Assembly: GCA_965116485.1 (NCBI GenBank)
Contig: OZ220692.1
Span: 2,459,152 to 2,523,151, forward strand
Direction of reading: 5' to 3'
Length of the DNA stretch: 64,000 nucleotides
Source: Acidimicrobiales bacterium
GTDB lineage: Bacteria; Actinomycetota; Acidimicrobiia; Acidimicrobiales; Aldehydirespiratoraceae
Shown here: piece after piece, positions 6,094 to 16,128 of the stretch
How positions within the stretch are numbered: the stretch's first letter is position 1
How the letters are laid out: the number at the start of each line of letters is the position of its first letter
Made by a program: the position numbers and the translations under genes
The notes under the pieces: model-generated
What the model saw: the letters and a program-made list of their open reading frames with translations, nothing else
Database searches by the model: none
What the model was told of the DNA's origin: nothing

Positions 6094-7320
6094 ATGTCGA
6101 CAGACACAGTCGCTGAAGATGAACTAGCCCAGTTTGCCGAGCGTTGCCGGGCATTCCTCGACGAACACGCCGTCGGAATCCACTCCGACGGCACGCCCGA
6201 CCCCCGAGGGGTCAAGCGGCTCGCCGCCAACAAAGAGTTCCAGCAGGCATTGGCCGAAGCAGGCCTCGCCGGCATCGTCTACCCGACCGAGTACGGAGGA
6301 GCCGGGCTCACCCGCGCACACGACCGGGTCTGGCGCGACATATACGCTCAGTACCCGAACATGAGCTTCGAGTTCACGATCTCCCACGGCATGTGCCTGC
6401 CGATGCTGGCCGAGTACGGCACTCACGAACAAAAGACCAGGTTCTTGGCCGACAACATCAGCGGGCGCACCGTGTGGTGCCAGATGTTCTCAGAACCGGG
6501 GGCAGGATCCGACGTGGCCAGCCTTCAAACAAGGGCCGAACGCGATGGCGACACATGGATCATCAACGGCCAGAAAGTATGGACGACCCTCGCCCATGTC
6601 AGCGACTACGGCGTGATCATCGCCCGCACCGATCCGAACGTTCCCAAACACGCCGGCATCTCCATGTTCATCGTGCCGATGGACGCGGCCGGAGTGGAGG
6701 TTCGCCCGATCAACCAGATCGACGGCGGCACCCACTTCAACGAGGTGTTCTTCACCGATGTTGAGATCCCCGCGGACAACCTCCTCGGCGATCTCAACAA
6801 CGGCTGGAACATGGCCACCGCCATGCTGATGTACGAACGCGTCGCCATCGGCACCGGCGCCACTGGAGGCGTCCGCCACGATCGCGCCGACCTGCTCATC
6901 GACGAAGCCACTGAACGCGGGATCATCGACCACCCGGTGCTGCGCCAGAAACTCATGCGGATCTACACCATGGAAACCTGCCAGTCACTCGTCTCGATGC
7001 GCACCCGCGCCGAGATGAAAGCCGGCAAAACCCCTGGACCCGGCGGTTCCATCAGCAAACTCGCCACCACCATCATCATGAACGAGGTACGCGACGTCTC
7101 GATGGAGATCGTCGGCGCCGGCGGTGTCGCCTGGGAGGATGAATCCGACGGTCGCTGGCAACGCGGGGCCCTGACCAGCCTGCAAGGCGGGATCGCCGGC
7201 GGCACCAACGAGATCCAGCGCAACATCATCGGCGACCGGGTGTTGGGCCTGCCTCGCGACATAAGCGTCGACAAGGGCGTCGCGTTCAAGGACCTCAAGG
7301 TCGGGACGCAGGGAGGTTAG
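6094..7320 (+). CDS. Acyl-CoA dehydrogenase family protein
   Basis: In ORF 5557-7320 the ACAD similarity starts at MSTDTVAEDELAQFAERCRAF (ATG 6094). Motifs FSEPGAGSDVASL and GGTNEIQRNIIGDRVLGLP. The upstream Pro/Arg-rich part is antisense to 4814-5947. Confidence 0.85.
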   Translation: MSTDTVAEDELAQFAERCRAFLDEHAVGIHSDGTPDPRGVKRLAANKEFQQALAEAGLAGIVYPTEYGGAGLTRAHDRVWRDIYAQYPNMSFEFTISHGMCLPMLAEYGTHEQKTRFLADNISGRTVWCQMFSEPGAGSDVASLQTRAERDGDTWIINGQKVWTTLAHVSDYGVIIARTDPNVPKHAGISMFIVPMDAAGVEVRPINQIDGGTHFNEVFFTDVEIPADNLLGDLNNGWNMATAMLMYERVAIGTGATGGVRHDRADLLIDEATERGIIDHPVLRQKLMRIYTMETCQSLVSMRTRAEMKAGKTPGPGGSISKLATTIIMNEVRDVSMEIVGAGGVAWEDESDGRWQRGALTSLQGGIAGGTNEIQRNIIGDRVLGLPRDISVDKGVAFKDLKVGTQGG

Positions 7321-7884
7321 CGGGTTCTTACCCGATTCTGGAGGATCCCGCCCAACCGACCGCGGACACCCCACAACACCCAACCAGCCACCACAACCAC
7401 ACCGCCACGGTGGATTCAGGCTTAGAGGCCCCGCGAATAGGCAGAGGATTTCCGAGTGCGAACGGCTTGATTTGCGGGGCCGTGGCCCGAGCGGCCCGGT
7501 GAGCGAAGCGAGCCAAGAGCGGGAAACAACGGGCTGCAACTCGAGGGCTTGCCTATTTGCGCGCGCTCTTATTCTCGGTCTGGTGTCGTAGGCGTGTGTT
7601 ATTGTCGTCTTTGAGATCGACTCAACCGTCGAGGAGTTTGCATGTGGCCAAGACAATCGAAACTTAGGTAGGCGAGCCAACTGGACATAGGTTGCTTGCC
7701 TCAGATGTCGCTCCTGCAGCGTGACGCAGGGCGCCGAGACTCAGTGAGCAACCCTCACAGAAAACCCGAGTACGCGTCGGGGGTCGAAGCGCAGTACAGA
7801 GCCGGATGGTGCATGGAGAGCGTGAGACAGACACGCGAAGGTCTCTCCGAAGAGTCAGCCAGCCGGAAGATATAGCCACAAATC

Positions 7885-7956
7885 GCGGTTGTAGTTCAAC
7901 TGGTAGAACGTCTGCTTGCCTAGCAGAGGGTTCGGGTTCAAGTCCCGGCAACCGCT
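7885..7956 (+). tRNA. tRNA-Gly(GCC)
   Basis: 72-nt hand-folded cloverleaf: acceptor gcggttg/caaccgc, D gttc/gaac, anticodon loop ttGCCta (unusual U37), T-arm tcggg-ttcaagt-cccgg, discriminator U. No encoded CCA. Confidence 0.85.
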
Positions 7957-8210
7957 CAACGGTCTCGACTTCAGACAGGATGAGGCTTGGATCGAGCCGA
8001 CGGTGAGGTTTCTGACGGACCACGGCATCTATCACAAGGTCGAAGTTCAGCAGGTCGCCCAGTGGGAAGCCGAGCACGCCGAGATACATCGGATCAAAGA
8101 CGAACAGGAGACCGAGGAACGCTCTAGGCGCGGCCATCCGGTCCCACACCGCGTGAAGCTCGGCAACGGACGTGAGGGCATCCGCTGGTCGTGACCGCTC
8201 GCAGCACCTA

Positions 8211-8282
8211 TCGGGGATGGTGTAATTGGCAACACATCGGGTTTTGGTCCCGAAATTGAAGGTTCAAGTCCTTCTCTCCGAT
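8211..8282 (+). tRNA. tRNA-Gln(TTG)
   Basis: 72 nt: acceptor tcgggga/tctccga (U1-A72 as in bacterial tRNA-Gln), loop ttTTGgt, T-arm gaagg-ttcaagt-ccttc. CCA encoded at 8283-8285. Confidence 0.9.
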
Positions 8283-8287
8283 CCAAT

Positions 8288-8360
8288 CCGCCTGTAGCTC
8301 AACGGATAGAGCACCTGACTTCGGATCAGGTGGTTGGAGGTTCGACTCCTCTCAGGCGGT
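8288..8360 (+). tRNA. tRNA-Arg(TCG)
   Basis: 73 nt: acceptor ccgcctg/caggcgg, D gctc/gagc, loop ctTCGga, T-arm ggagg-ttcgact-cctct. No CCA. Confidence 0.85.
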
Positions 8361-8371
8361 CGAAGAAACCC

Positions 8372-8458
8372 GGAAGCGTGGCAGAGTCTGGCTTATTGCG
8401 TCGGTCTTGAAAACCGGAGGGCTTCACGGTCCCGTGGGTTCAAATCCCACCGCTTCCT
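8372..8458 (+). tRNA. tRNA-Ser(TGA)
   Basis: 87-nt class II tRNA: acceptor ggaagcg/cgcttcc, loop ctTGAaa, long variable arm gggcttcacggtccc, T-arm gtggg-ttcaaat-cccac. Confidence 0.9.
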
Positions 8459-8629
8459 CGCTGAGTTGTGTGGCGATCTCAAATCGTCGTCTGCGTGCAG
8501 CGCTGCGCCGTTCGACGATGGGCTTGGCTCCCAATAGGAGTCTGTCCGAGGAGGACCACACACCGTCTTTGGGATTGATCCCCCGAAGGCGGCTCCCGAG
8601 TATCGACGGCTCGGGGGCTCAAAGTCTCT

Positions 8630-8702
8630 GGGGATGTAGTTCAATTGGAAGAACGCCGGTCTCCAAAACCGGAAGTTGCAGGTTCGAGTCCTGTCAGCCC
8701 CG
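8630..8702 (+). tRNA. tRNA-Trp(CCA)
   Basis: 73 nt: acceptor ggggatg/cagcccc (A5xG68 mismatch), loop ctCCAaa, T-arm gcagg-ttcgagt-cctgt. CCA encoded. Confidence 0.85.
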
Positions 8703-8706
8703 CCAA

Positions 8707-8779
8707 ACGCATGTAGCTCAGTGGATAGAGCATCTGGTTGCGGACCAGAAGGCCGGAGGTTCGACTCCTCTCATGCGTG
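8707..8779 (+). tRNA. tRNA-Arg(GCG)
   Basis: 73 nt: perfect acceptor acgcatg/catgcgt, loop ttGCGga, T-arm ggagg-ttcgact-cctct. No CCA. The anticodon has G34 rather than the usual bacterial A34. Confidence 0.85.
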
Positions 8780-8967
8780 CCGTTCCTGTGTTGACTGTGG
8801 CGTGCAGATCGACACAGACCCCCTAATAGGCTCTCAGGGGGTTGGCCTTGCGTGGAATCGAGACACCGCGCAAGGCGTGACTCGATGGCGTGTCCGCCAA
8901 CACGTCAACGAAGACCGAAGTCTCCGGTCAGAAGCCGCTCGGTATGAGGCCGTCGAGCGGCTCACTA

Positions 8968-9040
8968 TGGCGCGTAGCTCAGTTGGAAGAGCGTCTCGTT
9001 TACACCGAGAGGGCCGCGGGTTCGACCCCTGCCGCGCCAA
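8968..9040 (+). tRNA. tRNA-Val(TAC)
   Basis: 73 nt: acceptor tggcgcg/cgcgcca, loop ttTACac, T-arm gcggg-ttcgacc-cctgc. CCA encoded at 9041-9043. Confidence 0.9.
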
Positions 9041-9200
9041 CCAAAGCGACCACAGTCGCTTCACATTGCTAGCCGCTGGTGTCGGCCAGCGTGGTTCCCG
9101 GACCGCCCGACAGGGGGCACCGACCGAAGACAGAGTTCGATTCTCGGGTCCGGCCTATCCGACTTCTCCTCGCTTCTTCCGTACGGGGAGAAGTCGGCTC

Positions 9201-9273
9201 GGGGGTGTAGCTCAGTAGGTAGAGCGTCTGCTTTGCAAGCAGAAAGTCACGGGTTCGATTCCCGTCTCCTCCA
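9201..9273 (+). tRNA. tRNA-Ala(TGC)
   Basis: 73 nt: acceptor gggggtg/ctcctcc with the G3-U70 Ala identity pair and a U6xU67 mismatch, loop ttTGCaa, T-arm acggg-ttcgatt-cccgt. CCA encoded. Confidence 0.9.
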
Positions 9274-9280
9274 CCATCTC

Positions 9281-9352
9281 GCCCGAGTAGCTCAATTGGC
9301 AGAGCACCTGTCTTGTAAACAGGCGGTAGGAGTTCGACTCTCCTCTTGGGCT
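9281..9352 (+). tRNA. tRNA-Thr(TGT)
   Basis: 72 nt: acceptor gcccgag/cttgggc, loop ctTGTaa, T-arm aggag-ttcgact-ctcct. CCA encoded. Confidence 0.9.
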
Positions 9353-9566
9353 CCAAACCTGAAGGTCCGATTTGTCCGCTTCGGGTCTGATTTGCCGTGA
9401 CTAGTCCTGATCGTAAGATCAGCGGCAGACGCGGAGCACCCCAAGAAGGCTGGGTCCGGGGATCAAGCGGGGACGATGCTCTCGTTTGCGCTCGCCGATC
9501 CCCCGCCCGAGACTAAGCCGGAAGCGAGGTTGGATTCCTCGGGTTTCTGCGGGCCGCTTCGTGCTA

Positions 9567-9640
9567 CGGGTTGTGGCGCAGGCTGGCAGCGCGCCTCGTT
9601 CGGGACGACGAGGTCGACGGTTCAAATCCGTCCAACTCGA
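9567..9640 (+). tRNA. tRNA-Pro(CGG)
   Basis: 74 nt: acceptor cgggttg/caactcg (C1-G72 typical of tRNA-Pro), loop ttCGGga, one CxC mismatch in the anticodon stem, variable aggtc, T-arm gacgg-ttcaaat-ccgtc. No CCA. Confidence 0.8.
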
Positions 9641-9646
9641 CGTCTA

Positions 9647-9720
<74 letters not shown>

Positions 9721-9726
9721 CCACTA

Positions 9727-9799
9727 TCCGGGGTAGCTCAATTGGCAGAGCGGTCGGCTGTTAACCGACATGTTGGAGGTTCGAGTCCTCCCCTCGGAG
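9727..9799 (+). tRNA. tRNA-Asn(GTT)
   Basis: 73 nt: acceptor tccgggg/cctcgga (U1-A72), loop ctGTTaa, T-arm ggagg-ttcgagt-cctcc. No CCA. Confidence 0.9.
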
Positions 9800-9824
9800 C
9801 TTGCACGAAGCGAGTTCAGTTCAT

Positions 9825-9897
9825 GCGCCTCTAGCTCATCTGGAAGAGCGTCGGACTCTTAATCCGAAGGCACTGGGTTCGAGTCCCAGGAGGCGTG
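9825..9897 (+). tRNA. tRNA-Lys(CTT)
   Basis: 73 nt: acceptor gcgcctc/gaggcgt, loop ctCTTaa, T-arm ctggg-ttcgagt-cccag. CCA encoded. Confidence 0.9.
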
Positions 9898-9901
9898 CCA
9901 A

Positions 9902-9973
9902 GCCCCGGCGGTCTACCGGATGGACACCTGGTTTTCACCCAGGAGGCAGCGGGTTCGACTCCCGTCCGGGGTA
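9902..9973 (+). tRNA. tRNA-Glu(TTC)
   Basis: 72 nt: acceptor gccccgg/ccggggt, 3-bp D stem gtc/gac as in tRNA-Glu, loop ttTTCac, T-arm gcggg-ttcgact-cccgt. No CCA. Confidence 0.85.
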
Positions 9974-10002
9974 CGGATGGCTCGTGTGAGCCGACAATTT
10001 TT

Positions 10003-10077
10003 GGCTTCATAGCTCAGTCTGGTTAGAGCGTTGCCCTGTCAAGGCAGAGGTCGCCGGTTCAAATCCGGTTGGAGCCG
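10003..10077 (+). tRNA. tRNA-Asp(GTC)
   Basis: 75 nt: acceptor ggcttca/tggagcc, D gctc/gagc, loop ctGTCaa, T-arm gccgg-ttcaaat-ccggt, G73. CCA encoded. Confidence 0.9.
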
Positions 10078-10089
10078 CCAAAACACCGA

Positions 10090-10163
10090 CGAGGTGTAGC
10101 TCAATTTGGAAGAGCGCCTGGTTCTGACCCAGAAGGTCGCGAGTTCGATCCTCGCCGCCCCTG
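10090..10163 (+). tRNA. tRNA-like gene with Gln(CTG) anticodon; weak acceptor stem, possible pseudogene
   Basis: 74 nt: good D arm (gctc-aatttggaa-gagc) and T-arm gcgag-ttcgatc-ctcgc, loop ttCTGac. Acceptor cgaggtg/cgcccct has two mismatches (1-72, 3-70), plus a C27xA43 mismatch. The 5' half is nearly identical to tRNA-Pro(TGG) at 9647. Confidence 0.5.
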
Positions 10164-10247
10164 CCAACTCGTACCACTGCACCGCGTCCGCACTAGCAAC
10201 CCGCACATTCGTCAGCAATTTCATAGTTAGTGTGGTAGATTGCAGAC

Positions 10248-11078
10248 ATGGTGAACTCCATTGAGCCACGGGAACTGCGCGACATGATGGTCGAGCGCGG
10301 CATCGAGTTCGCTAGCGCTTCGGAGATCGCTGGATGGATCGGCTGCAACCTTCAGGAGGTTCCGCATCGACTGCGCGGAGCGCGACAAGCACGAGAGATG
10401 GTGTGCGTGACGCGTCACGGCTGGGTGCCGACTATTGGTGGACGTGTTGCTCCGAGCACGTTTATGGAACCGATGATGAAACATCTCGGGCACCGGTACT
10501 ACATGGCTGGGTTGTCTGCTGCTGCCCGCCACGGGGCCTCGCACCAAGCGCTGATGGTGGACCACTACGCCACCGACGGGCACCTCTCCAGTCGGAGCAT
10601 CCGAGGGTCGAAGCGTGTTGTGATGTTCCACCGACCGCATATTACAGAGTTCCCGACTGTCGAAATACAAATCAGGAACAGAGCGGGACATGCGTGCCCC
10701 CTCAGAATCTCAACACCGGAAGTATCGTTGTTCGACTTGTTCGCGTTGCACCCGTTCTACGGACAGGATTCCAACCTGAACGTTGCCTGCGAGCTTCTCG
10801 ACCCAGGCCCGCACTTGGAGCCGGTGCTTGATCCCGAAGCGTTGGCTTCTGTGGCAATGCTCTACAGTGTGCCGACCAGACAACGCGTCGGCTTTCTGCT
10901 AGAGGAGATGGCAGAACATGTTGGACGCGACTTCGACCTTGACCCGTTGGAATCGACGTTGGGTGCCGCGGCTAGGACCGTCGAGTATGAGTACGACCCA
11001 GATCGCAGCGAACCACCTATCAAGCATCACGACCGATGGCGAGTGCGCCAGTGGTACGAGATGTGGCCTGACCTGTGA
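10248..11078 (+). CDS. AbiEi-like antitoxin/transcriptional regulator (type IV toxin-antitoxin)
   Basis: 276-aa ORF. Its size, N-terminal wHTH-like region and GTGA overlap with a downstream AbiEii-like fragment fit AbiEi. The family assignment is recollection-level and was not searched. Confidence 0.5.
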   Translation: MVNSIEPRELRDMMVERGIEFASASEIAGWIGCNLQEVPHRLRGARQAREMVCVTRHGWVPTIGGRVAPSTFMEPMMKHLGHRYYMAGLSAAARHGASHQALMVDHYATDGHLSSRSIRGSKRVVMFHRPHITEFPTVEIQIRNRAGHACPLRISTPEVSLFDLFALHPFYGQDSNLNVACELLDPGPHLEPVLDPEALASVAMLYSVPTRQRVGFLLEEMAEHVGRDFDLDPLESTLGAAARTVEYEYDPDRSEPPIKHHDRWRVRQWYEMWPDL

Positions 11079-11308
11079 TCCATCTAAGCGCAATCCAACA
11101 GTGGGAAGAGAATCACCCTTGGCAAGATGATTCCCAAATCGAGCAGGACTTACTTCTTGAAGCAGTGTTGCACCGTGCCGCGAGTACGGGCAGGTTCGGA
11201 GAACTGGTCTTCATAGGCGGGCACGGCGCTACCCCATGTCGACGACGGGTCGCTCCGGGAAAGACATGCCCGATTCACCGTCAACGGCCACAAGGCGCTC
11301 CTTCGTAG
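11075..11308 (+). pseudogene. AbiEii/DUF1814-type nucleotidyltransferase toxin, N-terminal fragment only
   Basis: 77-aa ORF. IEQDLLLEAVLHRAAS...LVFIGG resembles the N-terminus of AbiEii toxins (normally about 250-300 aa). The reading frame decays after FIGG and the gene abuts tRNA-Thr at 11334. Confidence 0.5.
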
Positions 11309-11333
11309 AAGCAAGCCGCCGGGTCTTCCTCTA

Positions 11334-11406
11334 GCCGTTGTAGCTCAGTTGGCAGAGCGCCGTCATGGTAAGACGGAGGTCGCCGGTTCGATCCCGGCCT
11401 TCGGCT
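11334..11406 (+). tRNA. tRNA-Thr(GGT), acceptor stem with two UxU mismatches
   Basis: 73 nt: acceptor gccgttg/cttcggc (5-68 and 6-67 are UxU), loop atGGTaa (A32), T-arm gccgg-ttcgatc-ccggc. No CCA. Confidence 0.7.
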
Positions 11407-11426
11407 CAACGAGCATCGAATATCTA

Positions 11427-11502
11427 GCCCCGTTGGTCTAGTTTGGCTTAGGACACCGCCCTTTCAAGGCGAAGATCACGGGTTCAAATCCCGTACGGGG
11501 TA
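11427..11502 (+). tRNA. tRNA-Glu(TTC)
   Basis: 76 nt: acceptor gccccgt/acggggt, 3-bp D stem gtc/gac with a 13-nt loop, loop ctTTCaa, T-arm acggg-ttcaaat-cccgt, A73. No CCA. Confidence 0.8.
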
Positions 11503-11562
11503 CTGTGCGCCGTAGTGCATCTGTTTGGACAGCGGACGTGTACGGTTTTTGTGGCGCATCAC

Positions 11563-11638
11563 GCTGCGTTGGTCTAGTCAGGTTCAGGACGCCGCCCTGT
11601 CAAGGCGGAGGACACGGGTTCAAATCCCGTACGTGGCG
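11563..11638 (+). tRNA. tRNA-Asp(GTC) built on a Glu-type body
   Basis: 76 nt: acceptor gctgcgt/acgtggc, the same 3-bp D stem gtc/gac with 13-nt loop and the identical T-arm acggg-ttcaaat-cccgt as the Glu gene at 11427, loop ctGTCaa, G73. Confidence 0.8.
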
Positions 11639-11646
11639 CTCATTGC

Positions 11647-11720
11647 AGGCGCGTAGCTCAGTTGGTTAGAGCGCTCCCCTGATAAGGGAGAGGCCGATGG
11701 TTCAACTCCATCCGTGCCTA
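11647..11720 (+). tRNA. tRNA-Ile(GAT)
   Basis: 74 nt: acceptor aggcgcg/cgtgcct, loop ctGATaa, T-arm gatgg-ttcaact-ccatc. No CCA. Confidence 0.9.
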
Positions 11721-11725
11721 CAAGA

Positions 11726-11815
11726 GGAACGGTGGCGGAGTCCGGTTGATCGCACCGCCCTGCTAAGGCGGAGACGCACGACGTGTGTCCGTGGGTTCAA
11801 ATCCCACCCGTTCCG
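11726..11815 (+). tRNA. tRNA-Ser(GCT)
   Basis: 90-nt class II tRNA: acceptor ggaacgg/ccgttcc, loop ctGCTaa, long variable arm, T-arm gtggg-ttcaaat-cccac. CCA encoded. Confidence 0.9.
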
Positions 11816-11822
11816 CCAACAT

Positions 11823-11896
11823 GTCGGCGTGCCCGAGCGGACTAAGGGAGCTGCCTGCAAAGCAGCGATTCACGGGTTCAAATCCCGTCGCCGACT
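11823..11896 (+). tRNA. tRNA-Cys(GCA)
   Basis: 74 nt: acceptor gtcggcg/cgccgac, anticodon arm gctgc-ctGCAaa-gcagc, T-arm acggg-ttcaaat-cccgt, U73 (Cys identity). CCA encoded. Confidence 0.85.
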
Positions 11897-11900
11897 CCAG

Positions 11901-11975
11901 GGTTCGGTAGCTCAGATTTGGAAGAGCGCCTGTCTGAAAAGCAGGAGGCCGGCGGTTCGATTCCTGCTCGAACCA
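11901..11975 (+). tRNA. tRNA-Phe(GAA) with a defective T stem
   Basis: 75 nt: acceptor ggttcgg/tcgaacc, loop ctGAAaa. The T-arm ggcgg-ttcgatt-cctgc has two mismatched pairs (50-64, 51-63). No CCA. Confidence 0.65.
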
Positions 11976-11984
11976 CATCAACAC

Positions 11985-12071
11985 GTCAGTATGGCGCGAG
12001 CGGCGAAGGCACTCGGCTGTAAACCGAGCGAGGCGAAAGCCTCTTCCCCGGTTCAAGTCCTGGTGCTGCCA
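11985..12071 (+). tRNA. tRNA-Tyr(GTA), class II, several imperfect pairs
   Basis: 87 nt: perfect anticodon arm ctcgg-ctGTAaa-ccgag and variable arm gaggc-gaaa-gcctc. Acceptor gtcagta/tgctgcc (one mismatch), weak 3-bp D stem, T-arm cccgg-ttcaagt-cctgg (one mismatch). Confidence 0.6.
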
Positions 12072-12084
12072 CACAGTCTCATAA

Positions 12085-12170
12085 GCGGGCGTGGCGAAGC
12101 TGGTAGACGCGCCGGGCTTAGGACCCGGTGGGGTGGAAGCCCCGTGTGAGTTCGACTCTCACCGCCCGCA
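12085..12170 (+). tRNA. tRNA-Leu(TAG)
   Basis: 86-nt class II tRNA: acceptor gcgggcg/cgcccgc, loop ctTAGga, T-arm gtgag-ttcgact-ctcac, A73. Confidence 0.9.
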
Positions 12171-12175
12171 CTCAC

Positions 12176-12249
12176 GGTGATATAGCTCAGTTGGTTAGAG
12201 CGGCGCGCTCATAACGCGTAGGCCCCTGGTTCGATTCCAGGTATCACCA
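12176..12249 (+). tRNA. tRNA with CAT anticodon (elongator Met or lysidine-type Ile2; not an initiator)
   Basis: 74 nt: acceptor ggtgata/tatcacc with G1-C72, loop ctCATaa, anticodon stem gcgcg/cgcgt (no GGG/CCC initiator signature), T-arm cctgg-ttcgatt-ccagg. Confidence 0.85.
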
Positions 12250-12259
12250 CCGAACACTC

Positions 12260-12345
12260 GCGGGAGTGGTGAAGCTGGTAGACACGCCAGATTCAAAATC
12301 TGGTGGGCTGAGAGGCCCGTGTGGGTTCGACCCCCACCTCCCGCA
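12260..12345 (+). tRNA. tRNA-Leu(CAA)
   Basis: 86-nt class II tRNA: acceptor gcgggag/ctcccgc, loop ttCAAaa, T-arm gtggg-ttcgacc-cccac. CCA encoded. Confidence 0.9.
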
Positions 12346-12356
12346 CCATCAGAATT

Positions 12357-12429
12357 GCCTCTGTAGCTCAATTGGATGAGCGTCCGGTTTCTACCCGGAG
12401 GGCTGCGGGTTCGAGTCCTGCCAGGGGCG
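12357..12429 (+). tRNA. tRNA-Arg(TCT)
   Basis: 73 nt: acceptor gcctctg/caggggc, loop ttTCTac, T-arm gcggg-ttcgagt-cctgc. No CCA. Confidence 0.9.
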
Positions 12430-12621
12430 CTGTTAGCTGACGATCTCCGCGTTGTTCACGGTGTGACCGACGCGTACGCGGCTTTGGTCAACGCGGCGAC
12501 AGCTTCGTAACGGTCGTCATGCCGAGCGCACGGCTCGATCCAAACCTGTTTCTGATCCACAACGTCGATGGTAACCACCCTGCCAGACGCCATTACGACG
12601 ATCTACAGTTCCCACCATCTT

Positions 12622-12694
12622 GCGTCTCTAGCTCAACTGGTAGAGCAGCGGACTTTTAATCCGACGGTTCTGGGTTCGAGTCCCAGGAGACGTT
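12622..12694 (+). tRNA. tRNA-Lys(TTT)
   Basis: 73 nt: acceptor gcgtctc/gagacgt, loop ctTTTaa, T-arm ctggg-ttcgagt-cccag. No CCA. Confidence 0.85.
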
Positions 12695-12736
12695 CTGCAA
12701 ACCGACACACACCAGAACACAGAGAGGACAACCGCG

Positions 12737-13279
12737 ATGTCGAAAGCGCTTCTGCTCAACGCCTCATACGAGCCGTTGCACGTCGTTTCAACGCGCCGCG
12801 CCCTGGGTCTGATCCTCGCCGGGAAAGCCGACCTCGTGGAAGCCGGTGACGGTGAGTGGCGTTCAGCGTCGCACACGTTCCCGGTTCCGTTGGTGCTGCG
12901 TCTGCGCTACATGGTGCGGATTCCGTTCACGGCGCGTGTCCCGTTGAACCGCAAGACGTTGAAGGTCCGTGACGACGGGAAGTGCCAGGTCGCATCGTGC
13001 CGCGCTAGTGGAACGACCATAGATCACGTCGTGCCGCGTTCGCGTGGTGGTGACCACTCTTGGACGAACGTCGTGTTGATGTGCTCAGACCACAACCTCC
13101 AGAAAGCCGACCGGCTGCTCAGCGAACTCGGCTGGCGGCTCAAAGCAGTCCCGCGCGCGCCGAGACAGCATCAACTCGTGCTCGCAACATCGAACACGAA
13201 ACCGGACCCAGCTTGGCAGCCGTACCTCGCCGGGGGATCACGGTTCTCTGGCTGCGTTGAACCAGGTTCGCTATGCTGA
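12737..13279 (+). CDS. HNH endonuclease
   Basis: 180-aa ORF with DHVVPRSRGGDHSWTNVVLMCSDHNLQK (H-N-H motif). Starts 43 nt after tRNA-Lys(TTT). Confidence 0.8.
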   Translation: MSKALLLNASYEPLHVVSTRRALGLILAGKADLVEAGDGEWRSASHTFPVPLVLRLRYMVRIPFTARVPLNRKTLKVRDDGKCQVASCRASGTTIDHVVPRSRGGDHSWTNVVLMCSDHNLQKADRLLSELGWRLKAVPRAPRQHQLVLATSNTKPDPAWQPYLAGGSRFSGCVEPGSLC

Positions 13280-13282
13280 GCT

Positions 13283-13489
13283 ATGAGCCGACGGGATGAT
13301 GTGCTGGTGAAGCACCGTGAAGCGATAGTCGCTGCTGCGAAACGAGAGAGGGCGCTCTCTTTCGCGTTCGTGGGTTCCACTGCCCGTGGTGAAGATATCC
13401 CCGACAGCGACCTGGACTTCCTAGTCGAGTTCAAGAAGGGCATCACCTTGTGCGGGATCGGTCGACTTGAAGCTGACCTTCAAGACATG
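13283..13489 (+). pseudogene. MNT-type nucleotidyltransferase (HEPN/MNT antitoxin-like), 3'-truncated
   Basis: FVGSTARGEDIPDSDLDFLVEF is the GSxxRG...SDxDLLV minimal-nucleotidyltransferase motif. Similarity ends near LEADLQD (about aa 68), and the rest of ORF 13283-13735 runs into the antisense of a tRNA. No HEPN partner is present. Confidence 0.55.
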
Positions 13490-13696
13490 CGTCGGATGGG
13501 ATGGGAACGGCGGCAAGGGTCAACAGCCGTCGAAAGCCGCTCGGCCCGGAGGGAAACCAGGCCAGCGCATACGCTCCCAAGACCAGCACAAACAAACCCG
13601 GACAGAGCCCCCACGGGCACCATCCGATATAAAGCCCCTAATTTGCCCTGTTCAGAAAGGGTGCTCGGCACCGGCCACGCCCGGCAACCAGCACAG

Positions 13697-13770
13697 CACC
13701 TCCGACAGGACTCGAACCTGCAACCTGCGAGGTAGAAGCTCGCTGCTCTATCCAGTTGAGCTACGGAGGC
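13697..13770 (-). tRNA. tRNA-Arg(TCT)
   Basis: 74 nt on the minus strand: acceptor gcctccg/cggaggt, loop ctTCTac, T-arm gcagg-ttcgagt-cctgt. Confidence 0.85.
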
Positions 13771-13854
13771 ACAATAATCGTACGCCGAGTGCCGCAACTC
13801 GGTACACTCAATGCCTGACTCCGCTCCGGGTCAACGCTCGGAACGGGGCAACAT

Positions 13855-13929
13855 GGTGGGCGTAGCTCAGTTGGTTAGAGCGCCTGGTTGTGGTCCAGGA
13901 GGTCGGGGGTTCGAGTCCCCTCGTTCACC
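13855..13929 (+). tRNA. tRNA-His(GTG) with encoded G-1
   Basis: 75 nt including G-1 (13855) opposite C73: acceptor gtgggcg/cgttcac, loop ttGTGgt, T-arm ggggg-ttcgagt-cccct. Confidence 0.9.
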
Positions 13930-13955
13930 CGTAGAATCGCCTTCGGTCGATACGC

Positions 13956-14028
13956 GCACCTCTAGCTCAATTGGCAGAGCAACGGACTCTTAATCCGCAG
14001 GTTCTGGGTTCGAGTCCCAGGGGGTGTA
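13956..14028 (+). tRNA. tRNA-Lys(CTT)
   Basis: 73 nt: acceptor gcacctc/ggggtgt, loop ctCTTaa, T-arm ctggg-ttcgagt-cccag. CCA encoded at 14029-14031. Confidence 0.85.
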
Positions 14029-14102
14029 CCACAGGCTCCAGATCTTGCACTGCCTCAGCGGAGCCACAACAGCGAATCGAGCAGTTTCACGAAGCTGGCT
14101 CC

Positions 14103-14534
14103 CTAGTGCGGATTCAGAACCTCGACGCGCCGCGGGTCAGCAGAGATCGCTGCCATAGCCTGGTCGAAAGTGGCAACGCAACCGTCGTAGCGCTCGGCCA
14201 AGGACAACAGGTGGAGATCGGTGACCTGTCGATGACCGGTGACCCCCGCTCGGTGCCAAGCCTGCGAGCGTGCCGGAACGATGTCGTCCACCCAGAATCG
14301 GTGCCCGGTGAATTCGGTGAGTGATCGCAGCACCGCCGCTGCCTCCCGCGGTGGGCGAGCATCAGCGAGTACACGCGAGTTCGAGGAAACACGGATAAAG
14401 CCCAACTGCACCACGGCCGACGTAGCCCATGATTCAACCCTTCGGGAGAGAAACCAGTCGACGGCTGCGCCGTGGTGAAGATGAGTAGGCCATGCCAAGG
14501 CAACGAGTACGTTGACGTCTAGAAGTGGTGTCAC
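14103..14534 (-). CDS. vapC: PIN-domain toxin VapC
   Basis: 143 aa: LLDVNVLVAL N-terminal acidic motif, later VTDLHLLSLA and ATFD acidic positions typical of PIN. 4-bp overlap with the upstream antitoxin gene. Confidence 0.8.
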   Translation of the reverse strand: MTPLLDVNVLVALAWPTHLHHGAAVDWFLSRRVESWATSAVVQLGFIRVSSNSRVLADARPPREAAAVLRSLTEFTGHRFWVDDIVPARSQAWHRAGVTGHRQVTDLHLLSLAERYDGCVATFDQAMAAISADPRRVEVLNPH

Positions 14535-14752
14535 CAGTCTTCGCTCGCTGAACGGACCATCTCAGGGGTGATTGGTTGACTGGCTGGTTCGACGGTGAAT
14601 CCCGGAACAGCACGCCTCGTGTCCACAGGCCGGTCTTGCAGTCCTTTGCGAGCCAAGTCCGAAACTGCGGTACCGACCGATACACCACGTTCGCGAGCGA
14701 GCGAGCGCGCCACCGCAAGAACATCATCAGCCAAATTCAGTGTTGTGCGCAT
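14531..14752 (-). CDS. vapB: VapB-type antitoxin
   Basis: About 73 aa: MRTTLNLADDVLAVARSLARERGVSVGTAVSDLARKGL is typical of VapB-like antitoxins. The ORF track starts at GTG 14755; ATG 14752 is the likelier start. Confidence 0.7.
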   Translation of the reverse strand: MRTTLNLADDVLAVARSLARERGVSVGTAVSDLARKGLQDRPVDTRRAVPGFTVEPASQPITPEMVRSASEDW

Positions 14753-14758
14753 CACAAC

Positions 14759-14787
14759 ATCATAGCATCATATTGCGGTTTTGACAC
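14759..14787 (-). promoter_or_regulatory. Candidate vapBC promoter giving a leaderless mRNA
   Basis: Minus strand reads gtgtca-N17-TATGAT-gttgtg-ATG. The -10 TATGAT (14759-14764) ends 6 nt before ATG 14752. A direct repeat atcata-gc-atcata overlaps the -10. Confidence 0.35.
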
Positions 14788-14813
14788 TACGGATTACCTT
14801 GCGGTGGGGAACC

Positions 14814-14925
14814 AACCCGCGGGCGATCGACAAAGTGACCGGGTCACCGGCGTGGATCGAGGCGAACAGCACCGCGACCATGGCGACCGCTGCTGCCAGC
14901 AAGTCCAGGAGCGGAGGAAACTCCG
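14814..14925 (-). pseudogene. 112-bp fragment homologous to the membrane-protein gene at 32276-33130
   Basis: 14814-14925 aligns without gaps to 32661-32772 (about 15 mismatches by eye). It translates to PPLLDLLAAAVAMVAVLFASIHAGDPVTLSIARGLV versus PPSLDLAAAAVAMVAVLFASINAGDPVALSIARGLV. Confidence 0.8.
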
Positions 14926-14939
14926 ACGTCTGCGTCGAG

Positions 14940-15236
14940 ATCGTGCTCAACAACGTGCCCACCCTGGGTGAATCGCATCAGGCATGGCAGCTCAACGAGA
15001 TCAGCTCGCTGATCTGGCCGTCCCCGCTCGGAGCGGGCGTGATGGACCCGGACCTGTGGGCCCAGACGGTCGACGTCGCCACCAGCGAGGGCATTCTCGG
15101 CGCAGCTCCGGACGACGGCGCCGATCGCACCGACATCGCCGAAGAGGCGCTCGAGAACCTGCGCGATCAGGGCATCGACGTGGTCGGCTCCGATTTCGAA
15201 CGGATTGTCGTCGAGCTTCGCGAAGGCGGCGAGTAG
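14940..15236 (+). pseudogene. 3' fragment of a solute-binding-protein-like gene
   Basis: Only the tail ...NNVPTLGESHQAWQLNEISSLIWPSPLGAGVMDPDLWAQTVDV...VVGSDFERIVVELREGGE reads like a real protein. It resembles the C-terminus of NMT1/THI5-type ABC substrate-binding proteins, which is weak recollection-level similarity. No N-terminal part is present. Confidence 0.3.
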
Positions 15237-15263
15237 CGCACGCGCCCGGCAGAACCTGATCCG

Positions 15264-15644
15264 CTAAAGCGGATCCGACTGGAAGACGCCCAGGACGTTG
15301 CCGCTCGGGTCCAAGAAGTGGAACCGCCGTCCCCCCGGGTAGGGGTAGATCGCTGAGATGATCTCCCCTCCCGCGGCGACCACTTCAGTCTGTTTGGCTT
15401 CGATGTCGGAGCAGCTGACCAGCACGAACGGACCGATCGGGTCCTCTGATCCCGGCGCATGGGCCGGGGCGGCCGTACCCGCGCCGTTGAGTCCGACCTC
15501 GACCGCGCCGCCTTCGTGGGCGACATAGCTGGGCCCGTATTCGGTCCAGTCCCAGCCGAACACCCGGCTGTAGAACTGCTTGGTCTGCTCCAACTGCGGC
15601 GCAGGAAGCTCAACGTAGTCGATCTGCAATCTGTCGCTCGCCAT
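15264..15644 (-). CDS. VOC (glyoxalase/bleomycin-resistance) family protein
   Basis: 126 aa: IDYVELPAPQLEQTKQFYSRVFGW ... RRFHFLDPSGNVLGVF is a typical VOC-fold pattern. Confidence 0.75.
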   Translation of the reverse strand: MASDRLQIDYVELPAPQLEQTKQFYSRVFGWDWTEYGPSYVAHEGGAVEVGLNGAGTAAPAHAPGSEDPIGPFVLVSCSDIEAKQTEVVAAGGEIISAIYPYPGGRRFHFLDPSGNVLGVFQSDPL

Positions 15645-15719
15645 CGCCCGACTCTACCCGGCCACACAGCCGACCACATAAGCAACCGGGGCTCCGGCTA
15701 CGCCCGGCGACCAGCAACG

Positions 15720-15793
15720 CACCTCCGACAGGACTCGACCCTGCAACCCGCGAGGTAGAAGCTCGCTGCTCTGTCCAGTCGAGCTACGGTGGC
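15720..15793 (-). tRNA. tRNA-Arg(TCT) copy 2, probably degenerate
   Basis: Same frame as 13697-13770, but acceptor gccaccg/cggaggt has an A4xA69 mismatch and the T-loop reads gtcgagt (T54 replaced by G). Confidence 0.55.
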
Positions 15794-15877
15794 GGAATAA
15801 TCGTACGCCGAGTGCCGCAACTCGGCACCCCCAATGCCTGACTCCGCTCCGGGTCAACGCCCGGGACGGGGCAACAT

Positions 15878-15952
15878 GGTGGGCGTAGCTCAGTTGGTTA
15901 GAGCGCCTGGTTGTGGTCCAGGAGGTCGGGGCTTCGAATCCCCTCGTTCACC
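15878..15952 (+). tRNA. tRNA-His(GTG) copy 2, T-arm altered
   Basis: Identical acceptor, G-1 and anticodon arm to copy 1. The T-arm is ggggc-ttcgaat-cccct, which breaks the near-invariant G53-C61 pair. Confidence 0.65.
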
Positions 15953-15978
15953 CGTAGAATCGCCTTCGGTCGATTCGC

Positions 15979-16051
15979 GCACCTCTAGCTCAATTGGCAG
16001 AGCAACGGACTCTTAATCCGCAGGTTCTGGGTTCGAGACCCAGGGGGTGTA
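15979..16051 (+). tRNA. tRNA-Lys(CTT) copy 2
   Basis: Same cloverleaf as 13956-14028. T-loop is ttcgaga, and the 3' trailer is caa instead of cca. Confidence 0.75.
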
Positions 16052-16128
16052 CAACGCAAAACCCCTAGTCAGTACAAGTTCTGTGCCGACCTGGGGTTCT
16101 GTCGTCCAGGTACGGGACACGTCCGTGG

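What the first reader, a model, noticed from the sequence alone, without database searches (positions are those of the whole stretch)
11427..11638. Adjacent tRNA-Glu(TTC) and tRNA-Asp(GTC) share one unusual body: an apparent anticodon shift between amino-acid families
The genes at 11427 and 11563 have the same architecture. Both have a 3-bp D stem gtc/gac, a 13-nt D loop beginning tagt, an identical T-arm acggg-ttcaaat-cccgt and near-identical acceptor 3' halves. They differ in the anticodon (TTC versus GTC) and the discriminator (A versus G). The other Asp gene in the array (10003) has the standard 4-bp gctc/gagc D arm. This looks like duplication followed by alloacceptor remoulding. It raises the question of which synthetase charges 11563.
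Basis: partly seen in the sequence, partly recalled or inferred. Interest (0 to 1): 0.6.

Follow-up and report, generated by a model that had tools for sequence, protein, structure and literature searches.

The report
Phage-type tRNA-Asp on a Glu-like scaffold
Two neighbouring tRNA genes for glutamate and aspartate in a horizontally acquired tRNA gene array really do share one body, but that body is a common phage-type scaffold used by both tRNA families elsewhere, so it is not a fresh duplication that changed amino-acid identity here.

Summary
tRNA-Glu(UUC) 11427-11502 and tRNA-Asp(GUC) 11563-11638 share the D arm GUCU/GGAC (three Watson-Crick pairs plus U13.G22) and the T arm ACGGG-UUCAAAU-CCCGU. 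They are 81.8% identical, the top cross-isotype pair of 3,089 in the genome.

The interpretation of a local duplication followed by remoulding is not supported.
- A phage-like metagenome tRNA array (L183) carries an Asp gene 94.7% identical to 11563. Its other 19 tRNAs are only 66-79% identical to anything in this genome.
- The L183 Asp gene is as similar to Glu 11427 (81-83%) as 11563 is.
- The same D arm with a GUC anticodon is the housekeeping tRNA-Asp of Lactobacillaceae and several other lineages. It also occurs in 41 viral contigs and in T5-like Vibrio phages.
- Unrelated Asp/Glu pairs on this scaffold reach 82-84% identity.
- Glu 11427 has its own relatives among phage tRNA-Glu genes.

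11563 carries the Asp states at the isotype-discriminating positions (G34, G1-C72, G73, G26). It is therefore most likely charged by the genome's single AspRS.

Within the host's order the type is unique (1 of 401 genomes), which points to import into a mobile L-array. The deep Glu/Asp relationship of the scaffold stays unresolved.

The parts
11427..11502 (+). tRNA-Glu(UUC), phage type. It has G1.U72, A73, the D arm GUCU/GGAC with an 11-nt D loop (AGTTTGGCTTA), a 5-nt variable loop (AGATC), a C27xA43 mismatch and no encoded CCA.
   Evidence: Its nearest relatives are viral-contig tRNA-Glu genes with 5-nt variable loops (L193, 84.2%) and tRNA-Glu of Streptomyces phages such as Francob (81.8%). 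Its profile score is -15.5 bits, a typical Glu value.
11503..11562 (+). 60-nt spacer between the two genes.
   Evidence: No promoter-like site was found, and only one weak terminator-like hairpin at 11500-11518, which is within chance expectation.
11563..11638 (+). tRNA-Asp(GUC), phage type. It has G1-C72, G73, G10, the D arm GUCU/GGAC with D loop AGTCAGGTTCA, variable loop AGGAC, tandem U3.G70/G4.U69 wobble pairs and no encoded CCA.
   Evidence: It is 94.7% identical to the Asp gene of metagenome array L183. The same scaffold occurs in viral contigs L156/L137 and in Vibrio phage PG07. Its profile score is +4.7 bits.
9902..9974 (+). The array's other tRNA-Glu(UUC). It has a different body and is the ortholog of the Glu(CUC) gene in the homologous array of genome G009 (85%).
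10003..10080 (+). The array's other tRNA-Asp(GUC), with the standard GCTC/GAGC D stem. It is the closest match (85.7%) of the Asp gene in the homologous G009 array.
   Evidence: Its profile score is +34.3 bits.
7885..16052 (.). Long horizontally acquired tRNA gene array (L-array) with 35 tRNA genes, interrupted by genes typical of mobile elements.
   Evidence: A homologous array is present in only 1 of 17 same-genus genomes.
10248..11078 (+). AbiEi antitoxin-like gene lying between the two tRNA blocks.
   Evidence: Pfam PF09407, E = 1.6e-10.
12737..13279 (+). HNH endonuclease gene inside the array. It is a candidate agent for movement of the array or of single tRNA cassettes.
   Evidence: Pfam HNH families, E about 3e-7. 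HNH genes also lie beside tRNA genes in Gordonia phage Sixama. A homing endonuclease next to L-arrays is discussed in PMC8421152.

Best explanation
11563 is a functional, horizontally acquired tRNA-Asp of a widespread phage-type lineage. That lineage normally uses the GUCU/GGAC D arm, which looks Glu-like. 11427 is a phage-type tRNA-Glu built on the same scaffold. The two sit side by side because this chromosome carries a mosaic, mobile L-array. The Asp gene did not arise in place from the Glu gene.

Inferred mode of action:
- The gene is transcribed with its neighbours and processed.
- CCA is added enzymatically, because the gene does not encode it.
- The tRNA is aspartylated by the genome's single bacterial-type AspRS through G73, G34-U35-C36 and G10.
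- It then reads GAC and GAU codons.
- GluRS should reject it, because it lacks U34, lacks the deletion of nucleotide 47, and lacks the G1.U72/A73 end that all Glu tRNAs of this type carry.

The roughly 82% resemblance to the neighbouring Glu gene is a property of the two lineages. Whether that reflects ancient common ancestry or shared structural constraints is unresolved.
For: Shown by tool results:
1. The L183 Asp gene is 94.7% identical to 11563, while L183's other tRNAs are only 66-79% identical to anything in this genome and its Glu gene is unrelated.
2. The L183 Asp gene is 81-83% identical to Glu 11427, the same as 11563. So 11563 shows no excess similarity to its neighbour.
3. The four differences between 11563 and L183 all preserve structure: pair 4:69 changes from U.G to G.U, pair 3:70 from U-A to U.G, and one difference is in a variable D-loop base (sequences).
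4. L183 and viral contig L151 share a syntenic Arg-Arg-Ser-Asp block at a uniform 80-85% identity, and their Asp genes share the acceptor stem GCTTCNT/ANGGAGC. The Asp gene is therefore old in that lineage.
5. The scaffold with a GUC anticodon was found in more than 119 genome loci and 41 viral contigs. It is also in Vibrio phage PG07. Among the genome loci are the housekeeping tRNA clusters of Lactobacillaceae.
6. Unrelated Asp/Glu pairs on this scaffold reach 82-84% identity.
7. At the positions that separate phage-type Asp from Glu (34, 72, 73, 26 and the AGTCAGG D loop), 11563 has the Asp state. Its profile score is on the Asp side.
8. The type is found in 1 of 401 genomes of the order. 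The homologous G009 array and two actinobacterial megaplasmid arrays carry standard Asp genes.
9. The genome has one aspS_bact, one gltX_bact and one glnS gene.

From established knowledge: the AspRS and GluRS identity sets known from E. coli.
Against: - The anticodon-masked maximum-likelihood tree places 11563 plus L183 inside a Glu-rich clade next to Glu 11427. A constraint making the three sequences sisters has slightly higher likelihood than the free tree.
- The profile score of +4.7 bits is weak, and the Asp training set is enriched for this D arm because of how it was collected.
- Among 95 loci that hold both a scaffold-type Asp and a Glu gene, only one (Rheinheimera) has a more similar co-resident pair than this window.
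- Only one close twin (L183) was found, and its host and mobile status are inferred.
- No expression or charging data exist.
- C38 and G2:C71, which are minor E. coli AspRS elements, are absent. The host's own tRNA-Asp also has A38.
Confidence: 0.65

Rival explanations
1. An older alloacceptor switch. The 11563/L183 Asp lineage arose from a phage-type tRNA-Glu like 11427 by duplication plus changes at positions 34, 72 and 73, or the reverse happened. The switch took place somewhere in the phage or array tRNA pool before the 11563/L183 split, and the gene then spread as a cassette.
For: - The maximum-likelihood tree puts 11563 plus L183 (100/99 support) in a starred clade of 22 Glu and 3 Asp sequences, nearest to Glu 11427. 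The sister constraint is not worse than the free tree.
- The isotype label needs at least 9 changes across well-supported branches.
- Other tRNAs have a body that disagrees with the anticodon: L151 Glu(CUC) scores +16.1 bits, DSS3_MAL1 Glu +8.2, Rheinheimera Asp -18.9 and Fodinibius Asp -21.7.
- A viral Asp gene (L222/L223) carries exactly the D loop of Glu 11427.
Against: - The tree uses only 74 columns, and its free search was not optimal.
- The AU test does not reject placing 11563 plus L183 with the AGTCAGG-type Asp clade (p = 0.31).
- The D loop, position 26, the variable loop and the acceptor end of 11563 match Asp lineages.
- The L183/L151 synteny suggests a long Asp history.
- Convergence on one scaffold explains the same data.
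Confidence: 0.22
2. In-situ duplication of Glu 11427 in this array followed by remoulding into Asp.
For: The genes are adjacent, 60 nt apart. They form the top cross-isotype pair in the genome and have the same D stem and T arm. Isoacceptor anticodon changes between orthologous positions of this array and the G009 array show that anticodons do drift in these arrays.
Against: - A twin at 94.7% identity exists in the unrelated array L183, which has no similar Glu gene.
- 11563 is no closer to 11427 than L183 is.
- There are 14 differences between the two genes, including all acceptor-end identity positions.
- The D loop of 11563 follows the Asp-lineage pattern.
- Glu 11427 has its own separate phage relatives.
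Confidence: 0.06
3. 11563 is a decaying or non-functional array passenger (a pseudo-tRNA), so its identity is moot.
For: L-arrays are often poorly expressed (PMC8421152). The gene has tandem G.U/U.G pairs in the acceptor stem and no encoded CCA. Earlier first-stage notes list structural defects in other array members.
Against: - The cloverleaf is clean and the universal tertiary nucleotides are intact: U8, A14, G18G19, the G15-C48 pair, U33, T54-Psi55-C56, A58 and G53-C61.
- The Rfam score of 62.9 bits is average for the array.
- All differences from L183 preserve pairing.
Confidence: 0.07

Closest known systems
Long horizontally transferred tRNA gene arrays (L-arrays, also called tRNA array units), described by Tran et al. 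2016 (PMC4758250), Morgado & Vicente 2018 (PMC5966550) and Santamaria-Gomez et al. 2021 (PMC8421152)
   Same: There are 35 tRNA genes in about 8 kb covering all amino acids. The genes are supernumerary to a complete housekeeping set. Distribution within the genus is patchy. An HNH endonuclease and toxin-antitoxin genes are embedded. The tRNAs resemble phage tRNAs.
   Different: In the passages I read, those papers do not mention an Asp member on the Glu-like scaffold, nor exchange of a single tRNA between arrays of unrelated composition.
Phage-encoded tRNA-Asp of the TG-GUCU-AGUCAGGU..-GGAY type (Vibrio phage vB_VpS_PG07 and other T5-like phages; viral contigs L156, L137, L163; metagenome array L183)
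   Same: It has the same D arm and D-loop motif, the same 5-nt AGGNC variable loop, the same ACGGG/CCCGU T stem, and the same G1-C72 plus G73 end. L183 is 94.7% identical.
   Different: Here the gene lies in an actinobacterial chromosome (63% G+C). No other genome among 401 of that order has this type.
Housekeeping tRNA-Asp of Lactobacillaceae and some uncultured Actinomycetota and Omnitrophota
   Same: These have a GUCU/GGAC D stem with a GUC anticodon and G73 in normal, vertically inherited tRNA operons. This shows that the arm is compatible with Asp identity.
   Different: Their acceptor stems and D loops differ, and identity to 11563 is only about 75-78%. They are not the source of 11563.
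Alloacceptor tRNA remolding and anticodon shifts (metazoan mitochondria, Sahyoun et al. 2015, PMC4783518; eukaryotic nuclear genomes, Rogers & Griffiths-Jones 2014, PMC3923123)
   Same: Within its own genome and order, 11563 is closer to tRNAs of another amino-acid family than to same-anticodon tRNAs. That is the operational signature of remolding.
   Different: With wider sampling the closest relative is another tRNA-Asp. No donor-recipient relationship with the adjacent Glu gene can be shown. The acceptor-end identity positions also differ, whereas classical cases differ by little more than the anticodon.

Membership tests
tRNA-Asp (substrate of bacterial AspRS) | GUC anticodon (G34, U35, C36) | tested here: met
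   The anticodon loop reads CTGTCAA.
tRNA-Asp (substrate of bacterial AspRS) | Discriminator G73 and G10 | tested here: met
   G73 follows ACGTGGC, and G10 opens the D stem. All phage-type Asp genes compared have G1-C72 plus G73.
tRNA-Asp (substrate of bacterial AspRS) | C38 and G2:C71 (minor E. coli identity elements, from established knowledge) | tested here: not met
   11563 has A38 and C2:G71. The host's own housekeeping tRNA-Asp also has A38, so C38 is evidently not required in this organism.
tRNA-Asp (substrate of bacterial AspRS) | The body scores as Asp when the anticodon is ignored | tested here: inconclusive
   The profile log-odds score is +4.7 bits, against an Asp mean of +14.6 and a Glu mean of -13.9. 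The training set is biased towards this D arm. tRNAscan-SE isotype models were not available.
tRNA-Asp (substrate of bacterial AspRS) | Actually charged with aspartate | not testable with these tools
   This needs aminoacylation assays or analysis of the charged tRNA.
Bacterial tRNA-Glu (substrate of GluRS) | U34 (modified), U35, C36, A37 | tested here: not met
   Position 34 is G.
Bacterial tRNA-Glu (substrate of GluRS) | Augmented D helix: U11-A24 and U13.G22 together with a missing nucleotide 47 (4-nt variable loop) | tested here: not met
   U11-A24 and U13.G22 are present, but the variable loop has 5 nt (AGGAC), so nucleotide 47 is not deleted. The host's housekeeping Glu tRNAs have 4-nt variable loops.
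Bacterial tRNA-Glu (substrate of GluRS) | Acceptor end of the local and phage Glu type: G1.U72 with A73 (G73 in one host gene) | tested here: not met
   11563 has G1-C72 and G73. The phage-type and host Glu genes read out at the acceptor end all have G1.U72; L151 Glu(CUC), flagged as Asp-like, has C1-G72 and G73.
Alloacceptor-remoulded tRNA (duplication plus anticodon shift) | Closer to another alloacceptor family than to same-anticodon tRNAs of related species | tested here: met
   Within the genome its best partners are Glu tRNAs. Relatives' Asp genes are 63-77% identical. No such Asp gene exists in 400 other genomes of the order.
Alloacceptor-remoulded tRNA (duplication plus anticodon shift) | No closer same-isotype relative anywhere, and an identifiable donor gene with excess similarity | tested here: not met
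   The closest relative overall is the L183 Asp gene at 94.7%. L183 is as similar to the putative donor Glu 11427 as 11563 is.
L-array / tRNA array unit | At least 20 tRNA genes at a density of at least 2 per kb, supernumerary to the housekeeping set | tested here: met
   There are 35 tRNA genes in 8.2 kb. The other 46 tRNA genes are dispersed elsewhere in the genome.
L-array / tRNA array unit | Patchy distribution and mobile-element companions, indicating horizontal transfer | tested here: met
   A homologous array is present in 1 of 17 same-genus genomes. AbiEi, HNH and nucleotidyltransferase-fragment genes lie inside the array.

The most novel reading that the evidence does not exclude
Phage and array tRNA pools maintain one interchangeable Asp/Glu scaffold (TG-GUCU-long D loop-GGAC, 5-nt variable loop, ACGGG/CCCGU T stem). 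On this scaffold identity has flipped repeatedly between Asp and Glu through changes at positions 34, 72 and 73. Single tRNA cassettes of this kind also move between otherwise unrelated arrays, possibly helped by HNH homing endonucleases. On this reading, the 11563/L183 lineage would be one such flipped and transferred cassette.
Probability: 0.25. Interest if true: 0.55.

Novelty: new member of a known kind. Interest (0 to 1): 0.3.

Why it matters
Taken at face value, the finding suggested a tRNA caught in the act of changing amino-acid family, with a risk of mistranslation. The evidence points to something more ordinary: a mobile tRNA array that has picked up a phage-type tRNA-Asp.

The case is still useful in two ways.
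- Comparison within one genome, or with close relatives only, can wrongly suggest remoulding when a tRNA is foreign.
- It documents a nearly identical single tRNA gene shared by two arrays whose other members are unrelated. This argues that arrays are assembled and edited one cassette at a time.

If the wider reading holds, meaning repeated Asp/Glu switches on one scaffold in phage tRNA pools, it would give a bacterial and phage counterpart to mitochondrial tRNA remolding. It would also provide natural test cases for how few changes separate AspRS substrates from GluRS substrates.

Tried and rejected
- Local gene conversion from Glu into Asp: rejected. The L183 Asp gene is equally Glu-like, and at the four sites where 11563 and L183 differ, 11563 matches Glu at one and L183 at two.
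- 11563 as the ortholog of the G009 array's Asp gene with altered stems: rejected. The G009 Asp gene is closest to window Asp 10003 (85.7% against 76.9%), even though the BLAST homology starts inside 11563 because the anticodon arm is shared.
- Phylogeny of 121 non-redundant Asp/Glu tRNAs with the anticodon masked: unresolved. The free search was sub-optimal, and the AU tests reject neither placement.
- Search for a closer twin among isolated phages and plasmids: none found. The best hits are 77-83% identical. In phages many are annotated tRNA-Glu; the plasmid hits carry no annotation.
- Search for relatives of Glu 11427 that have an adjacent twin Asp gene in viral contigs: none found.
- Promoter and terminator scan of the spacer: nothing above chance.
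- tRNAscan-SE isotype models were not available, so a leave-one-out profile log-odds test was used instead.
- The PF00152 search returned only the AspRS gene. No AsnRS was seen, but no class II LysRS was seen either, so the inference that AspRS is non-discriminating is tentative.

Full report
**What is there**

The window (genome positions 2,459,152-2,523,151 of a single-contig genome of 3.55 Mb and 63% G+C) holds 35 tRNA genes between 7885 and 16052. The genome has 81 tRNA genes in all, and the other 46 are dispersed elsewhere. They include one tRNA-Asp and the tRNA-Glu(UUC) and tRNA-Glu(CUC) genes. The window's block is therefore a supernumerary array.

Inside the array lie an AbiEi-like gene (10248-11078), an HNH endonuclease gene (12737-13279) and a nucleotidyltransferase fragment. 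Only one of 17 same-genus genomes (G009) has a homologous array. These are the hallmarks of the horizontally transferred L-arrays described in PMC4758250, PMC5966550 and PMC8421152.

**The observation**

The sequences, split by structural element, are:

- Glu 11427: GCCCCGT TG GTCT AGTTTGGCTTA GGAC A CCGCC CTTTCAA GGCGA AGATC ACGGG TTCAAAT CCCGT ACGGGGT A
- Asp 11563: GCTGCGT TG GTCT AGTCAGGTTCA GGAC G CCGCC CTGTCAA GGCGG AGGAC ACGGG TTCAAAT CCCGT ACGTGGC G

ARAGORN draws a 4-pair D stem whose last pair is U13.G22.

The pair is the most similar of 3,089 cross-isotype pairs in the genome (81.8%; mean 58.7%, sd 5.9). Asp 11563 is more similar to the three Glu genes of this body type (11427 and the two housekeeping genes) than to either of its other Asp tRNAs.

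**Is the Glu-like D arm unusual for tRNA-Asp?**

In this lineage it is. A pattern scan for GTCTAG..AGGAC followed by CTGTCA hit only the window's own genome among 401 genomes of the order, which span 215 genera. The homologous G009 array and two actinobacterial megaplasmid arrays carry Asp genes with GCTC/GAGC stems.

In general it is not. In Lactobacillaceae, in several uncultured Actinomycetota, in Omnitrophota and in some DPANN archaea, it is the ordinary tRNA-Asp sitting in ordinary tRNA operons.

**A near twin in an unrelated array**

A metagenome scan for the specific D arm found nine contigs, all tRNA arrays. One of them, L183, is 4,150 bp long and holds 20 tRNA genes plus a tmRNA gene. 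Its weak best match among isolated phages is roseophage-like DSS3_MAL1, which also has a tmRNA gene among its tRNA genes.

L183 carries an Asp gene 94.7% identical to 11563. Every other L183 tRNA is only 66-79% identical to anything in this genome, and its Glu gene has a different body.

The four differences between the twins all preserve structure. Pair 4:69 changes from U.G to G.U, pair 3:70 from U-A to U.G, and the fourth difference is in a variable D-loop base.

The L183 Asp gene is 81-83% identical to Glu 11427, the same as 11563. So 11563 shows no excess similarity to its neighbour, which a local duplication or gene conversion would have produced.

L183 shares a syntenic Arg(GCG)-Arg(UCG)-Ser(GCU)-Asp block with viral contig L151. 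The four genes are a uniform 80-85% identical, and the two Asp genes share their acceptor stem. This suggests that the Asp lineage is old in those elements and that 11563 is the imported copy.

**Both genes belong to phage-type lineages that share one scaffold**

Asp genes with TG-GTCT-AGTCAGGTYYA-GGAY, an AGGNC variable loop, an ACGGG/CCCGT T stem and a G1-C72 plus G73 end occur in viral contigs L156, L137 and L163 and in the T5-like Vibrio phage PG07.

Glu 11427 has its own relatives. These are viral tRNA-Glu genes with 5-nt variable loops (L193 at 84%, L190 at 83%) and the tRNA-Glu genes of Streptomyces phages of about 130 kb (Francob at 81.8%). All of them, like the host Glu tRNAs, have G1.U72, usually with A73.

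Positions 34, 72, 73 and 26, together with the AGTCAGG D-loop motif, separate the two families, and 11563 has the Asp state at each.

The scaffold itself is shared freely. A viral Asp gene (L222/L223) has exactly the D loop of Glu 11427. The DSS3_MAL1 Glu gene has the variable loop of 11563.

With the anticodon masked, unrelated scaffold-type Asp/Glu pairs reach 82-84% identity, for example a Limosilactobacillus Asp gene against a viral Glu gene. The window's pair, at 82.4% by the same measure, is therefore about what the scaffold alone produces.

Even so, among 95 loci that hold both kinds of gene, only one has a more similar co-resident pair.

**Isotype test**

tRNAscan-SE was not available. 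I used a leave-one-out profile log-odds test (Asp against Glu) with the anticodon masked and with 11563, 11427 and L183 excluded from training.

| tRNA or group | Score (bits) |
|---|---|
| Asp, mean | +14.6 |
| Glu, mean | -13.9 |
| Asp 11563 | +4.7 |
| L183 Asp | +8.6 |
| Glu 11427 | -15.5 |
| Asp 10003 | +34.3 |
| Rheinheimera Asp (Glu body) | -18.9 |
| Fodinibius Asp (Glu body) | -21.7 |

11563 falls on the Asp side but in an intermediate position. The Asp training set is enriched for this D arm, so a generic bacterial Asp model might score 11563 lower.

**Phylogeny**

A maximum-likelihood tree of 121 non-redundant Asp/Glu tRNAs joins 11563 and L183 with 100/99 support. It places them in a Glu-rich clade beside Glu 11427.

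The tree rests on only 74 columns, and some constrained trees beat the free search. The AU test does not reject grouping 11563 plus L183 with the AGTCAGG-type Asp clade (p = 0.31).

The deep relationship is therefore open. An old Glu/Asp switch in the phage tRNA pool is possible and is kept as the main rival and as the novel reading.

**Which synthetase?**

The genome encodes one bacterial-type AspRS, one GluRS and one GlnRS. No AsnRS was detected.

From the established E. coli identity sets, AspRS reads G73, G34-U35-C36, G10 and, as minor elements, C38 and G2:C71. GluRS reads modified U34, U35, C36, A37 and the augmented D helix that lacks nucleotide 47.

11563 has the major Asp elements. It has A38, as does the host's own tRNA-Asp. 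It lacks U34, lacks the nucleotide-47 deletion, and lacks the G1.U72/A73 end. Aspartylation by AspRS is the clear prediction. It is an inference, not a demonstrated result.

**Verdict**

The proposed mechanism, in-array duplication and remoulding, is not supported. The best reading is an imported phage-type tRNA-Asp on a scaffold that phage tRNA-Asp and tRNA-Glu genes share.

It is a new member of known kinds (an L-array, and phage-type tRNA-Asp). Two modest points of interest remain:
- the type is unique within the host's order;
- a nearly identical single tRNA gene is shared by two otherwise unrelated arrays, which is evidence for exchange of single tRNA cassettes.

Noticed in passing
L025 (Rheinheimera lutimaris NZ_JABSOD010000004.1), locus positions 6557-6962: Four tandem tRNA genes have an E. 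coli-type tRNA-Glu body (4-nt variable loop, GTCCCCT acceptor stem) but a GTC anticodon. They are 97-99% identical to the flanking tRNA-Glu(TTC) genes and score -18.9 bits (Glu-like) in the profile test. They are candidates for a genuine recent anticodon shift, or for an assembly or variant artefact.
   Followed up: partly
L125 (Fodinibius halophilus NZ_JAALLS010000005.1), locus positions 443-516: A tRNA with a GTC anticodon sits on a full Glu-type body (4-nt variable loop TAGC, G1.U72, A73). Its profile score is -21.7 bits, and it is 87% identical to this genome's housekeeping tRNA-Glu(CTC).
   Followed up: partly
L151 positions 7580-7656 (viral contig) and L221 positions 930-1006 (Bacteriophage DSS3_MAL1): These are the converse cases: tRNA-Glu(CTC/TTC) genes whose bodies score as Asp (+16.1 and +8.2 bits). 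L151 Glu has G73 and the same anticodon stem, including its G.U pair, as the L156 Asp gene (84% identical).
   Followed up: partly
L222 positions 1055-1131 and L223 positions 8232-8308 (viral contigs, 32% G+C): A tRNA-Asp gene has a D loop (AGTTTGGCTTA) identical to that of the window's Glu 11427. The D-loop variants are therefore not isotype-specific in phage tRNA pools.
   Followed up: no
window 12085-12348 and 9902-9974, compared with L011 (G009 array): Positional orthologs in the two homologous arrays carry different anticodons within one amino-acid family. Leu(TAG) corresponds to Leu(CAG) (83%), Leu(CAA) to Leu(GAG) (84%) and Glu(TTC) to Glu(CTC) (85%). In addition, Lys(TTT) at 12622 is the best match (89%) of the G009 Lys(CTT) gene, which lies elsewhere in that array. 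Isoacceptor anticodon shifts appear to be frequent in these arrays.
   Followed up: partly
window 11563-11638: The acceptor stem has tandem wobble pairs U3.G70 and G4.U69. The twin in L183 has U3-A70 and U4.G69, so pair 4:69 is flipped by a double change. G4:U69 is known to let some eukaryotic AlaRS enzymes mischarge tRNAs. No such effect is known to me for bacterial AlaRS.
   Followed up: no
window 10003-10166, compared with L011 12979-13063: The 3' flank of Asp 10003 (CCAAAACACCGACGAGG) resembles the 3' flank of the G009 Asp gene (CAACACGAAGG). This suggests that 10003, not 11563, is the positional ortholog. It also suggests that the block from Gln(CTG) through AbiEi, Thr and Glu to Asp (10090-11639) was inserted, or that the array was rearranged there.
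   Followed up: partly
genome position about 2,576,800 (outside the window), 5' end of the aspS open frame: The open frame upstream of the AspRS start contains six tandem copies of a 15-nt repeat that would read DLTTT. They probably lie upstream of the true start codon.
   Followed up: no
L156 and L137 (viral contigs; L137 comes from a 618-kb contig): These arrays hold tRNAs in pairs per isotype (Met-Met, Ile-Ile, Val-Val, Asp-Asp, four Thr, four Lys). Each pair has one conventional and one unconventional body. One Ile(GAT) gene also uses the GTCT/GGAC D arm.
   Followed up: no
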